Under the pieces are notes generated by a model that had not been told where the DNA came from, did no database searches, and saw nothing but the letters and a program-made list of their open reading frames with translations. 51,192 bases of DNA from a virus (taxonomy: Duplodnaviria; Caudoviricetes): the IMG/VR virus record IMGVR_UViG_3300027863_000050, positions 1 through 51,192 of that record; one strand, written 5' to 3'. This document shows, piece by piece, positions 6,290 through 8,738 of the stretch. A program made the position numbers and the translations under genes. Every line of letters starts with the position of its first letter. Positions within the stretch are counted from its first letter, which is position 1.

Positions 6290-7086
6290 GCCAGGCTACT
6301 TGAGCGTACCACGGTTAGGGAGCGAGCCATGGAACAGGAGAGTGCCAAAGTCCGTGAGCGAGCCAAACATGCGGAGGGTGCCATGACGGTGGAGCGAGCC
6401 ATGTTCTCTGAGAGCACCATCCTACGGGAGCGAGCCAGTAGGACTGAAGAGCACCACGTCTGGTGAGCGAGCCAAGTCCGGTGAGAGTGCCAACAATTTG
6501 GAGCGAGCCATTGGATGAGAGAGTGCCAGCGTGTAAGAGCGAGCCACGACGGGCGAGAGTGCCAGGACTTGTGAGCGAGCCAGAGATTGTGAGAGTACCA
6601 TAGCGTCGGAGCGAGCCACGGAAGCGGAGCGTACCAGGTCCATTGAGCGAGCCACTTTGGCGGAGAGTACCACGGCACGGGAGCGAGCCACAAATCGTGA
6701 GAGTACCAAGGCCTCGGAGCGAGCCACGGAGCGGAAGAGTGCCAGGCGGCCGGAGCGAGCCAGAGATTGTGAGAGTACCACCAGTTCCGAGCGAGCCAAC
6801 ATAGAGGATAGTACCACTGATGTAGAGCGAGCCAGACTACCAGAGAGTACCAAGGCTTGTGAGCGAGCCATCGCCTTCGAGAGTTCCACGACTCAAGAGC
6901 GAGCCAGACGACGTGAGAGTGCCAAATATGGTGAGCGAGCCATGGTTGTGGAGAGCACCAATACTGGTGAGCGAGCCAGAAGTTGTGAGTGTACCATAGG
7001 GCGCGAGCGAGCCAGCGAGCCGGAGAGTACCAAAGTGGATGAGCGAGCCACAGACTGTGAGAGTACCAGAATTCTAGAGCAAGCCA
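6284..7086 (+). ncRNA. TIGR-like guide array 1: 22 units of 36 nt
   Basis: Unit = GAGCGAGCCA + 8 variable nt + GAGAGT(A/G)CCA + 8 variable nt; one unit is 37 nt; ends at degenerate GAGCAAGCCA (7077-7086). Confidence 0.9.
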
Positions 7087-7119
7087 AAAACAGAGCGAAC
7101 ATCTAAGGAGGTAACACAA

Positions 7120-8235
7120 ATGGAAAACGGAATCGGATTCGACCAGGACGAACTCGCCAGCGAATTGCTGGCATCGTTCTCCAAACTGCGGCTGGACCTC
7201 AAGGCCGCCGCATCAATGGGCCGCCGACAGGCCCGGTATGCCGTTAACACCTATTACGATGTGCAGCGGATACGCATTGCGACCGAACACCAGGTGCGCC
7301 AATGTGAGAAACGAAACGAGCCAACGAACCTGCTCAAATGGATCGCCGGTGTGACTTACGCCTTGGAATATCAGATTCGACGTGCGCTCGGCGCTTTCGC
7401 GGAGAACGCCGAGGTCGGACGCTGGGCGCTGGGGATTCTTGGAATCGGCCCGGTTCTGAGCGCTGGACTACTCGCACACATCGACATGAACCGCGCGCCG
7501 ACCGTCGGCCACATCTGGCGTTTTGCGGGATTGGACCCTAAGCAAAAGTGGATCGGTGCAAAAGCGGCCGAAGCGTTCGTTGCGCGGTTCCCGGAGGACA
7601 CGCCGCTGGAGGACATTATTGTCCGCGCTGTCGAAGTGATACATTGCCGACCTGAAACGCTCGTGATGCTGGCAAGAACCAACCCGCAAGGCAAGAAAAT
7701 CAAAATGACCCGCGAGACGGTGACGCGGGCTATCGCAAAGCGGCCGTGGAACGAGGGGCTGAAGACGCTCTGCTGGAAAATCGGCGAATCGTTCGTCAAG
7801 GTTTCGAACAAGCCGAACAGCCTATACGGACGCATATACAAGGAGCGCAAAACGCTTGAGTGGCAGCGCAATCTGGCAGGCGAAAATGCGGAGTATGCGA
7901 AGCACGTGCTGACCGTAAAGCGGTTCGGCCTTGACACGATGGCGCGCGCCTGGTACAGCGGCGAGATTTCCGCGCCGCTGGTTGAGAAAGCGTTGCGCGA
8001 TGGAAGTCCGCTGCCGGAGAATTTGCGCGAAGCGAGCGAAAAAGCTGGCGGGCTGGTACCGATGTTGCCGCCGGCACATATTCATGCGCGGGCGACCCGT
8101 TACACGGTCAAGCTGTTCTTGTCACATTGGCACGAGGTCGCCTACCGCGCGCACTACCATAAGGAACCGCCGAAGCCGTACGTGATCGACCATCTAAAAC
8201 ACAGGGATTTTATCGGCGCGGATGAGGCGTCGTAA
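7120..8235 (+). CDS. tasA: Nop-domain / IS110-like RNA-binding protein without nuclease domain (TasA-like)
   Basis: Helical N-terminus YYDVQRIRI, GIGPVLSAGLLAHID and IWRFAGLDP Nop/IS110 motifs, PWNEGLKTLCW, HIHARATRYTVKLFL; no N-terminal RuvC DEDD or HNH; AAGGAGGT RBS; flanked by arrays. Confidence 0.82.
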   Translation: MENGIGFDQDELASELLASFSKLRLDLKAAASMGRRQARYAVNTYYDVQRIRIATEHQVRQCEKRNEPTNLLKWIAGVTYALEYQIRRALGAFAENAEVGRWALGILGIGPVLSAGLLAHIDMNRAPTVGHIWRFAGLDPKQKWIGAKAAEAFVARFPEDTPLEDIIVRAVEVIHCRPETLVMLARTNPQGKKIKMTRETVTRAIAKRPWNEGLKTLCWKIGESFVKVSNKPNSLYGRIYKERKTLEWQRNLAGENAEYAKHVLTVKRFGLDTMARAWYSGEISAPLVEKALRDGSPLPENLREASEKAGGLVPMLPPAHIHARATRYTVKLFLSHWHEVAYRAHYHKEPPKPYVIDHLKHRDFIGADEAS

Positions 8236-8738
8236 GCCAAGCTTTTGGAGAGTACCAGGCGCGTAGAGCGAGCCACCGGAATTGAGAGTACCAGCACTCG
8301 GGAGCGAGCCAATGACGCCGAGAGTACCATTGCGGCCGAGCGAGCCACGGAAGCGGAGCGTACCAGGTCCATTGAGCGAGCCACAACCGCTGAGAGTACC
8401 AGAACCCGTGAGCGAGCCACTTGAATGGAGAGTGCCATCTGATTCGAGCGAGCCAGAGGATGCGAGAGTGCCAACAACAATGAGCGAGCCATAATGCGCG
8501 AGAGTACCACAATGCGGGAGCGAGCCAAGTCGTCGGAGAGTACCAGGTTATTCGAGCGAGCCACGGAAAATGAGAGCACCAACAACAATGAGCGAGCCAT
8601 GGCGTCTGAGAGTACCACCAGTTCCGAGCGAGCCACTGCACTCGAGGGTACCAGTGCGATGGAGCGAGCCAAGCCTTGCGAGAGTACCAAAGATGGAGAG
8701 CGAGCCAAAGTAACGGAGAGCGCCATTCTCATTGAGCG
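8230..8738 (+). ncRNA. TIGR-like guide array 2: 14 units of 36 nt
   Basis: Same two alternating 10-nt repeats and 8-nt variable segments as array 1; starts over the tas stop codon. Confidence 0.9.

What the first reader, a model, noticed from the sequence alone, without database searches (positions are those of the whole stretch)
6573..8625. Half-spacers are reused in new combinations within and between the two arrays
Seen: spacer A GAGATTGT pairs with TAGCGTCG (unit at 6573) and with CCAGTTCC (6753). Spacer B CCAGTTCC recurs with TGGCGTCT (8590). Spacer B ACAACAAT pairs with GAGGATGC (8446) and CGGAAAAT (8554). One whole unit, CGGAAGCG-GAGCGTACCA-GGTCCATT including its variant loop repeat, is identical at 6609 and 8338. 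Near-variants also occur (GAGATTGT/GAAGTTGT/CAGACTGT; GGACTTGT/AGGCTTGT). Three exact 8-mer recurrences among 72 half-spacers, each in the same A or B slot, are unlikely by chance. Inference: guides diversify by recombination at the repeats (A/B shuffling), or several guides hit related target sites. Either would be a clue to how these arrays evolve.
Basis: partly seen in the sequence, partly recalled or inferred. Interest (0 to 1): 0.8.

Follow-up and report, generated by a model that had tools for sequence, protein, structure and literature searches.

The report
Reused half-guides in phage TIGR arrays
A hot-spring phage carries two arrays of two-part guide RNAs in which the same 8-letter half-guide turns up with different partners, apparently because single halves are copied between units, and this bears on the unsolved question of how such arrays change.

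Summary
The region is a dual-repeat TIGR-Tas locus. A 371-aa TasA-like gene (7120-8235) is flanked by arrays of 22 and 14 units: edge repeat GAGCGAGCCA, loop repeat GAGAGTACCA-like, 8-nt spacers. Among 72 half-spacers there are 5 exact pairs against 0.06 expected, all in the same slot. They amount to one whole unit copied between the arrays and three half-spacers with unrelated partners.

Exact contigs from two samples show this is not a misassembly. None of the 36 guides has a contiguous target in the phage's own genome.

The pattern is general. In 75 dereplicated genomes with the same repeats, within-genome same-slot exact recurrences number 62 (null 1.0) and cross-slot 1 (null 0.8). Sharing between unrelated genomes is at chance.

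Four near-identical phages differ over 777 nt only inside one half-spacer. The variant is 7/8 identical to a same-slot half-spacer 16 units away.

Best reading: slot-preserving, repeat-bounded copying of half-spacers and whole units within a genome (conversion-like). This re-pairs guides. The molecular mechanism is inferred.

The parts
6284..7094 (+). TIGR array 1: 22 units of edge repeat GAGCGAGCCA, 8-nt spacer A, loop repeat GAGAGTACCA-like, 8-nt spacer B. One spacer A is 9 nt (after 6428). The first, degenerate edge repeat overlaps the stop codon of the upstream YqaJ-like gene. The last edge repeat is GAGCAAGCCA at 7077.
7120..8235 (+). tas gene, 371 aa, TasA-like: a Nop/IS110-RBD-like domain with no recognisable nuclease domain.
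   Evidence: Pfam Transposase_20, 25.5 bits, above its cut-off. phmmer against the PDB: 9MTY chain A (TasR) E 1.2e-9, TasH E 2e-4. 9MTY is the TasR model. Alignment to TasR starts at TasR residue 121, so there is no counterpart of its N-terminal RuvC part.
8236..8743 (+). TIGR array 2: 14 units. [quoted passage not shown]
6583..6590 (+). Spacer A GAGATTGT, copy 1 (unit 6573, partner B TAGCGTCG).
6763..6770 (+). Spacer A GAGATTGT, copy 2 (unit 6753, partner B CCAGTTCC). Both halves of this unit recur elsewhere.
6781..6788 (+). Spacer B CCAGTTCC, copy 1 (unit 6753).
8618..8625 (+). Spacer B CCAGTTCC, copy 2 (unit 8590 in array 2, partner A TGGCGTCT).
8474..8481 (+). Spacer B ACAACAAT, copy 1 (unit 8446, partner A GAGGATGC, loop variant GAGAGTGCCA).
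8582..8589 (+). Spacer B ACAACAAT, copy 2 (unit 8554, partner A CGGAAAAT, loop variant GAGAGCACCA). The differing loop variants limit the shared tract to about 22 nt.
6609..6654 (+). Whole unit CGGAAGCG / GAGCGTACCA / GGTCCATT with both flanking edge repeats: the array 1 copy.
   Evidence: X2 contig 6481-6818 spans it with 0 differences.
8338..8383 (+). The same whole unit, array 2 copy. It is identical to the array 1 copy, including the rare loop variant.

Best explanation
The locus is a dual-repeat TIGR-TasA system in a roughly 50-kb phage. The recurring 8-mers are copies by descent made inside this genome. Sequence is copied non-reciprocally from one TIGR unit to another in register, so an A half lands only in an A slot and a B half only in a B slot.

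The copied tracts end in the flanking repeats and come in two sizes. One is a single half-spacer, bounded by one edge and one loop repeat. The other is one or more whole units, bounded by edge repeats. A single-half copy re-pairs the half with a foreign partner and so creates a guide with a new 16-nt specificity. A whole-unit copy duplicates a guide, here between the two arrays flanking tas.

Shown: the recurrences are real, slot-specific, confined to within genomes, general for this repeat family, and present as cassette replacements between near-identical phages.

Inferred: the molecular route. Candidates are gene conversion or patch repair of out-of-register heteroduplex held by the 10-nt repeats, or polymerase template switching. 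Whether the process is selected for diversification or is a neutral by-product is also inferred.
For: (1) Window: 5 exact same-slot pairs against 0.06 expected; 0 of 20,000 shuffles reach 5.

(2) Each of the three half-only recurrences has unrelated half-spacers on both sides (Hamming 5-7 of 8). The shared tract is therefore only the 8-mer plus its repeats.

(3) The whole-unit copy carries the rare loop variant GAGCGTACCA (3 of 36 units), which marks it as a copy by descent.

A tolerant parse, dereplicated to 75 genome clusters and 2382 half-spacers, gives these within-genome counts:
- same-slot exact pairs: 62, null 1.0;
- cross-slot exact pairs: 1, null 0.8;
- same-slot 1-mismatch pairs: 59, null 21.7.
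24 of 75 clusters show at least one recurrence, as do 21 of the 47 clusters with 20 or more half-spacers.

(5) 18 recurrences in 12 clusters are isolated single cassettes. Closed run lengths are: 1 half (15 A, 11 B); 2 halves starting with A, 9; 2 halves starting with B, 0; 3 halves, 1; 4 halves, 2.

(6) Between unrelated genomes, sharing is at chance: A=A 17, B=B 20, A=B 29, against nulls of 11.7, 16.4 and 24.7.

(7) Direct cases. L046, L005 and L104 against L110 show 6 differences in 777 nt of array, all inside one spacer B. The L110 version is 7/8 identical to a B-slot half-spacer 577 nt downstream, behind the same loop variant. By my estimate that has about 1% probability by chance.
In contig 45044_056, a duplicated two-unit block differs only in one spacer A (5 of 8 positions). 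One of the two versions recurs exactly in the A slot of another array of that genome.
Of 404 repeated (previous, next) contexts, 401 have the same middle half-spacer, 1 has a point change and 2 have a whole replacement.

(8) A second hot-spring sample (X2) holds contigs identical to the window to the right of a loop-repeat start (6374, 6555) or an edge-repeat start (8410) but with different spacers to the left (table 7).
Against: No event was caught in the window's own lineage, because no close relative could be fetched.

Homology arms of 10 nt are short for known recombinases, and the enzyme and route are unknown.

In the window there are no 1-mismatch pairs, and the direction of copying cannot be told.

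The three half-only cases in the window could equally be leftovers of whole-unit duplications in which one half was later replaced by new sequence.

Only 2 whole-cassette replacements were seen among 404 contexts.

The L110 variant differs from its putative donor at 1 of 8 positions.

The X2 variants are single low-depth contigs (depth 2-5) whose full extent was not listed.

Natural targets are unknown, so a target-driven cause is not excluded.

Confidence: 0.65

Rival explanations
1. Whole units are duplicated first. One half of a copy is then replaced by new sequence that is not copied from the array, through some unknown half-spacer acquisition. A shared half with a different partner would then be what is left of a duplication, not a re-pairing of existing halves.
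For: Whole-unit and block duplications are common: 13 whole-unit pairs in 78 clusters, and 9 closed runs of one unit plus 2 of two units. In 7 of 30 half-only pairs the other half is still similar (3 or fewer mismatches), which shows divergence after duplication. For most isolated recurrences the partner half has no second copy in the fetched sequence.
Against: In both replaced-cassette cases, one of the two versions has a same-slot copy or near-copy elsewhere in that genome. In the window, unit 6753 shares both halves with other units. That needs two duplications plus two replacements under this model. Point mutation cannot give partners 5-8 mismatches apart while the neighbours stay identical.
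Confidence: 0.2
2. The shared halves were acquired independently, because several natural targets share an 8-bp half-site (related or junction-type target sites).
For: The two spacers of a tigRNA read adjacent stretches of opposite DNA strands (paper passages), so targets sharing a half-site would give guides sharing a half. Targets are unknown, so this cannot be checked directly.
Against: tigRNAs with swapped spacers work in vitro (paper), so independent capture should place a half in either slot. The data show 62 same-slot against 1 cross-slot recurrences. Unrelated genomes share halves only at chance. None of the 36 guides has a contiguous target in the phage's own 51 kb: best hits have 2-4 mismatches, the same as 360 mis-paired controls. 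The whole-unit copy carries its rare loop variant, which is a mark of copying.
Confidence: 0.1
3. The recurrences are assembly errors in a repetitive region.
For: Logan contigs of X1 break inside the 47-nt duplicated unit, and no single listed contig spans the array 2 copy.
Against: Each A-loop-B combination is 26 nt, which I take to be shorter than the word length of Logan's contigs (about 31, recalled rather than given by any search); if so, each combination is witnessed within single words. X1 records 2, 4 and 7 hold all re-paired units with 0 differences. X2 record 12 (6481-6818, 0 differences), from another sample, spans units 6573, 6609 and 6753.
Confidence: 0.02

Closest known systems
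Dual-repeat TIGR-Tas systems, TasA type (Faure et al. 2025, Science, PMC12045711; Xu et al. 2026 preprint 10.64898/2026.09.09.750476)
   Same: Alternating edge and loop repeats. 36-nt units with two short spacers. Repeats ending in CCA. Arrays on both sides of a Nop-domain tas gene. Phage location. A truncated edge repeat at each end of array 2.
   Different: The spacers are 8 nt; the paper gives 9 nt as typical but reports a 16-nt total for SpTIGR. The repeats start with GAG, and the base before them is not a fixed U. No terminator follows the array, which runs straight into the next gene's ribosome-binding site. The half-spacer reuse itself is not mentioned in the passages and sections I read. 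Both papers call the origin and expansion of the arrays unknown.
Repeat-mediated rearrangement of CRISPR arrays (spacer duplication and deletion by recombination between repeats)
   Same: Copies and losses bounded by the array's own repeats. No dedicated machinery needed. Duplicated spacers within and between arrays of one genome.
   Different: A CRISPR spacer is a complete guide, so copying it creates no new specificity. Here a guide has two halves, and copying one half creates a new pairing. The homology is 10 nt rather than roughly 30 nt. The comparison rests on my own knowledge and on the Science paper's discussion. I saw the CRISPR papers only as a search listing.
Cassette-type gene conversion used for antigenic variation (pilin and surface-protein systems)
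   Same: Short variable cassettes flanked by conserved sequence are copied non-reciprocally into an expressed site, giving new combinations.
   Different: This is an analogy recalled from general knowledge, not tested here. Here there are no silent donor loci, the tracts are far shorter, and there is no evidence that the process is programmed or selected.

Membership tests
TIGR-Tas, dual-repeat type | Two distinct alternating 8-12-nt repeats separated by short (about 8-9 nt) spacers, giving 36-nt units | tested here: met
   10-nt repeats GAGCGAGCCA and GAGAGTACCA-like alternate every 18 nt across 22 + 14 units. The definition comes from paper passages.
TIGR-Tas, dual-repeat type | An adjacent gene for a Nop-domain Tas protein | tested here: met
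   ORF 7120-8235: Pfam Transposase_20 above its cut-off. phmmer hits to TasR 9MTY (E 1.2e-9) and TasH (E 2e-4). tblastn found homologues at 30-54% identity in 82 of the 122 loci held at that call, 118 of them fetched for sharing these repeats.
TIGR-Tas, dual-repeat type | Repeats start with UG and end with CCA (box D and box C), as described for TasR arrays | tested here: inconclusive
   CCA at the repeat end is met in nearly all repeats. The repeats begin with GAG, and the base before them is T in only 36-39% of window spacers, so the UG start is not met as written. The paper states this motif for TasR arrays.
TIGR-Tas, dual-repeat type | [quoted passage not shown] | tested here: inconclusive
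   Both truncated edges are present in array 2 (8236, 8734). No terminator-like site follows either array. Ribosome-binding sites of tas and of the next ORF follow directly.
TIGR-Tas, dual-repeat type | Processing into 36-nt tigRNAs that guide DNA binding | not testable with these tools
   No RNA run holds the locus; all 9 runs listed were DNA.
TasA subtype (Nop domain alone, no nuclease) | No HNH or RuvC domain | tested here: met
   There is no nuclease family among the Pfam hits. Only 44 residues precede the part that aligns to TasR from its residue 121. This is by sequence only; no fold was made.
CRISPR array | One repeat of about 23-55 nt, spacers of about 26-72 nt, cas genes nearby | tested here: not met
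   Two alternating 10-nt repeats with 8-nt spacers. The Pfam scan of six ORFs within 3563-10480 (three upstream of array 1, tas, two downstream of array 2) gave no Cas family. The CRISPR size ranges are recalled.
Non-reciprocal copying (gene conversion-like) within a repeat array | A donor copy persists in the same genome, in register, and the tract ends in shared homology | tested here: met
   62 same-slot against 1 cross-slot recurrences. The runs end at repeats. Donor-like copies exist in both replaced-cassette cases.
Non-reciprocal copying (gene conversion-like) within a repeat array | Non-reciprocity and dependence on a recombination or repair enzyme | not testable with these tools
   Needs experiments. 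RecT and YqaJ-like genes lie upstream. tblastn with the window's own proteins found RecT relatives in only 4 of the fetched loci and YqaJ relatives in 0.

The most novel reading that the evidence does not exclude
Copying half-spacer cassettes is the way, or one way, that TIGR phages make new guides without any adaptation machinery. A genome's pool of N spacer A and N spacer B halves is re-paired in register, sampling up to N x N 16-nt specificities, and selection keeps the useful pairs. That would be a combinatorial guide-diversification mechanism specific to split-guide systems, and a partial answer to what both TIGR papers call an open enigma.
Probability: 0.25. Interest if true: 0.85.

Novelty: new variant of a known kind. 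Interest (0 to 1): 0.62.

Why it matters
The discovery paper and the 2026 survey preprint both say that how TIGR arrays arise, expand and acquire spacers is unknown, and that the dual-spacer design makes this harder to explain.

This locus and 74 other dereplicated genome clusters with the same repeats show one concrete route of change. Single half-guides and whole units are copied in register inside a genome, which re-pairs halves and gives new 16-nt specificities. This does not explain where entirely new halves come from.

It does give testable predictions: same-slot donors, tracts ending in repeats, and unit-framed duplications. It also gives a simple statistic that can be run on the 65,635 catalogued dual-repeat tigRNAs.

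It matters for engineering as well. Multiplexed TIGR arrays may scramble their guides by the same route.

Tried and rejected
Self-targeting. All 36 guides were searched against the 51-kb genome with the arrays masked, in both possible geometries (A + rc(B), and rc(A) + B), with gaps of 0-2. Best hits had 2-4 mismatches, the same as 360 mis-paired controls. The geometry is not stated in the text I could read. I inferred A + rc(B) from the 8-nt 3' overhang passage and tested both.

Targets elsewhere. I scanned viral contigs for the 16-mer expected for the duplicated unit in both geometries. The scans gave 27 and 31 scattered single hits. This is uninformative, and I made no control scan to set the chance level. 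The other guides were not scanned.

Close relatives of this phage:
- Tas peptides in viral contigs: none.
- Tas peptides in metagenome contigs: 89 pattern matches, none confirmed.
- blastn of 6000-9200 against isolate phages: none.
- The duplicated-unit pattern in metagenome contigs and viral contigs: 0 and 0.

The window shares no whole unit with the 98 IMG/VR contigs. Three exact half matches there are at chance. The best near-match of a whole unit has 3 of 16 mismatches, and the swapped-slot control also reaches 3.

RecT/YqaJ link. tblastn with the window's own proteins found RecT relatives in 4 of the fetched loci and YqaJ relatives in 0. No general association was shown; other recombinase families were not tested.

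Promoter and terminator scans around the arrays were at chance level.

Runs X3 and X4 held only small shares of the sampled words. When laid they proved to be about 91%-identical relatives with different arrays. I use them only for the three conserved units, not for habitat.

Parts of the stretch had no cover in X2 (2 of 30 bins).

An early loose parse (1542 units, dominant strand only) was replaced by the strict parse (1412 units) and the chain parse (3164 half-spacers). Half-spacers that were not 8 nt long were dropped from the counts. Chains of fewer than 4 repeats were also dropped, and 3 contigs fell out for that reason.

Fig. S4, fig. S5 and table S1 of the Science paper hold array alignments that might already show such reuse. 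A search for tigRNA together with shuffling, gene conversion or spacer-acquisition terms found no paper on the subject (listing only).
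Full report
WHAT IS THERE

Between 6284 and 8743 the + strand carries two arrays in which two 10-nt repeats alternate every 18 nt, separated by 8-nt variable stretches. The repeats are GAGCGAGCCA, which is nearly invariant, and GAGAGTACCA, which has 12 variant forms among 36 copies.

Array 1 (6284-7094) has 22 units and array 2 (8236-8743) has 14, giving 72 half-spacers.

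Between the arrays lies a 371-aa ORF (7120-8235). It hits Pfam Transposase_20 above its cut-off. By phmmer it also hits the solved TasR (9MTY, E 1.2e-9) and TasH (E 2e-4). The Science paper names 9MTY as its TasR model. The alignment starts at TasR residue 121 and no nuclease family is hit, so the protein is TasA-like.

This is a dual-repeat TIGR-Tas locus as defined by Faure et al. 2025 (PMC12045711; passages and sections 6 and 10 read).

Array 2 begins with a 5'-truncated GAGCGAGCCA and ends with a 3'-truncated one.

The record is a 51,192-base virus record that is its own whole genome. Its best holders are hot-spring metagenomes.

THE OBSERVATION

Every sequence and coordinate in the finding checks out. 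There are 5 exact 8-mer pairs among 2556 possible pairs. Column-wise shuffles within slot give a mean of 0.06, and none of 20,000 shuffles reaches 5. The five pairs amount to four events:
- the whole unit at 6609 and 8338;
- GAGATTGT (A slot, 6573 and 6753);
- CCAGTTCC (B slot, 6771 and 8608);
- ACAACAAT (B slot, 8464 and 8572).

All are in the same slot.

The near-variants are at chance: 14 pairs at two mismatches against 13.2 expected, and none at one mismatch against 1.36 expected.

In each half-only case the neighbouring half-spacers on both sides are unrelated (5-7 of 8 differ). The shared tract is therefore the 8-mer plus its repeats: 28-29 nt, or about 22 nt for ACAACAAT, whose upstream loop variants differ.

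Unit 6753 takes its A from the kind at 6573 and its B from the kind at 8590.

NOT AN ARTEFACT

Logan contigs of the probable source run X1 match the window with 0 differences in pieces that contain every re-paired unit. These are records 2, 4 and 7.

A 338-nt contig from a second hot-spring sample, X2 record 12 (6481-6818, 0 differences), spans units 6573, 6609 and 6753.

The contigs break inside the 47-nt duplicated unit, as expected for a repeat that long. No single listed contig spans the array 2 copy. Its two flanks are each linked to one half, through a 13-nt overlap that includes the rare loop variant.

TARGETS

None of the 36 guides has a contiguous site in the phage's own genome in either geometry. 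Best hits have 2-4 mismatches, the same as 360 mis-paired controls.

Scans of IMG/VR for the site of the duplicated unit gave 27 and 31 scattered hits, which say nothing.

THE SAME REPEATS ELSEWHERE

Of the 122 loci held at the time (these 118 plus four fetched later), 82 hold a Tas homologue at 30-54% identity. This gave an independent test set.

The strict parse gave 98 contigs plus the window and 1412 units. Dereplicated to 78 clusters and 1120 units, it gave these within-genome counts:
- A-only recurrences: 16;
- B-only recurrences: 14;
- whole-unit recurrences: 13;
- cross-slot recurrences: 2, one of which looks like a repeat;
- nulls: 0.82 for same-slot and 0.69 for cross-slot.

The tolerant chain parse gave 75 clusters and 2382 half-spacers:
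- same-slot exact pairs: 62 against 1.0;
- cross-slot exact pairs: 1 against 0.8;
- same-slot one-mismatch pairs: 59 against 21.7.

24 of 75 clusters are affected, as are 21 of the 47 clusters with 20 or more half-spacers.

Eighteen recurrences in 12 clusters are isolated single cassettes.

Closed shared runs have these lengths in half-spacers:

| Length | Starts with | Count |
|---|---|---|
| 1 | A | 15 |
| 1 | B | 11 |
| 2 | A | 9 |
| 2 | B | 0 |
| 3 | B | 1 |
| 4 | A | 2 |

Between unrelated genomes, sharing is at chance: 17, 20 and 29 against 11.7, 16.4 and 24.7.

In 21 of 30 half-only pairs the partners are unrelated (5 or more mismatches). In 7 they are similar (3 or fewer), which shows some duplication followed by point divergence.

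DIRECT CASES

Four near-identical contigs were compared: L046, L005 and L104 against L110. The four are identical across the aligned array start except within the spacer B of the second unit. There, three genomes have one 8-mer and L110 has another that differs at 6 of 8 positions. L046's record and L110's record were then compared across 777 nt of array and differ only at those 6 positions.

The L110 version is 7/8 identical to a B-slot half-spacer 577 nt downstream in the same array, behind the same loop variant. That downstream half-spacer is present in both genomes.

In contig 45044_056 (and its relative 43725_025), a two-unit block is duplicated with only one spacer A replaced. One of the two versions recurs exactly in the A slot of another array of that genome.

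Across all loci, 404 (previous, next) contexts occur more than once. Of these, 401 keep the same middle half-spacer, 1 has a point change and 2 have a whole replacement.

In X2, three contigs run into the window's sequence exactly at a repeat start with different spacers before it. Two are at loop repeats (6374, 6555), which means the same B with another A. One is at an edge repeat (8410) (table 7). These are single low-depth contigs.

MECHANISM

The data fit in-register, non-reciprocal copying between units of one genome, with tract ends in the repeats.

Slot preservation follows if pairing needs edge on edge and loop on loop; the two repeats differ at 3 of 10 positions.

A single crossover does not fit, because it would duplicate or delete everything between the partners.

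Plausible routes:
- patch repair of 8-nt bubbles in out-of-register heteroduplex held together by the repeats;
- polymerase template switching.

Neither is shown.

Two-half runs always start with A. This may reflect the perfectly conserved edge repeat being the preferred junction. It would also fit a unit-sized (tigRNA-sized) copying process. I do not press this.

A RecT gene (3563-4699) and a YqaJ-like exonuclease gene (5390-6289) lie directly upstream. Relatives of them were found in only 4 and 0 of the fetched loci.

COMPARISON AND NOVELTY

The locus is an ordinary member of the TIGR-TasA kind, with 8-nt spacers and no terminator after the array.

The reuse pattern is not mentioned in what I read of three TIGR papers:
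- the Science paper: passages and sections 6 and 10;
- the TIGRFinder preprint: outline and sections 5 and 13;
- the asymmetric-targeting preprint: passages only.

The first two state that spacer origin and array expansion are unknown. One search for tigRNA with shuffling or conversion terms found nothing relevant. Supplements were closed and could hold relevant alignments.

The nearest known process is repeat-mediated rearrangement of CRISPR arrays. The new aspect is that in a split-guide array, copying one half makes a new guide.

VERDICT

The recombination reading is supported in a modified form: short, conversion-like, slot-preserving copies. The shared-target reading is not supported.

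The mechanism and any adaptive value are inferred. Interest is moderate to high for the TIGR field, because the finding makes an acknowledged open question testable.

Noticed in passing
window 1-893 and 50300-51192: The first and last 893 nt align at 870/893 identity, with a 78-nt exact core at 547-624 and 50846-50923. This looks like a circular or terminally redundant genome of about 50.3 kb whose ends were assembled from slightly different strains.
   Followed up: partly
window 3563-6289: A RecT-family gene (3563-4699), an unassigned 240-aa ORF (4696-5418) and a YqaJ-like exonuclease gene (5390-6289) sit directly upstream of array 1. The stop codon of the YqaJ-like gene lies inside the first, degenerate edge repeat. 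Both arrays run straight into ribosome-binding sites (of tas and of the ORF at 8763), so the arrays appear to be embedded in one operon.
   Followed up: partly
window 6609-6654, 8410-8456, 8626-8672 (run X4, record 27): A relative from a rhizosphere metagenome has a tas gene with 98 differences in 1151 nt. It keeps three of the window's units nearly intact (2, 3 and 3 differences in 46-47 nt) in arrays that otherwise differ in length and content. One of these is the unit duplicated in both window arrays, so some guides seem to be conserved.
   Followed up: partly
window 6172-6294 (run X1, record 3): The probable source sample also holds a minor variant at depth 4.7 (against about 30). It has 5 differences in the 123 nt before array 1. 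The remaining ~199 nt of its 322-nt contig did not lie on the window, which would fit a co-existing strain with a different array 1.
   Followed up: no
window 6178-7119 (-), 8154-8780 (-), 6657-7106 (+): Long ORFs of up to 313 aa run through the arrays in several frames, with periodic peptide repeats. They are by-products of the 18-nt periodicity and are not genes.
   Followed up: no
window 17152-17304 and 38109-38232: Two tandem duplications elsewhere in the genome: an 81-nt unit in 1.9 copies at 88% match, and a 63-nt unit in 2.0 copies at 90% match.
   Followed up: no
loci L001-L118: The same 10-nt edge repeat and the same loop-repeat frame are kept across Tas proteins that are only 30-54% identical to the window's. 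The repeats are thus far more conserved than the protein that binds them.
   Followed up: partly
window 9137-10480: A 447-aa ORF two genes downstream of array 2 carries DUF6745 (E 6.5e-37). Its function is unknown.
   Followed up: no
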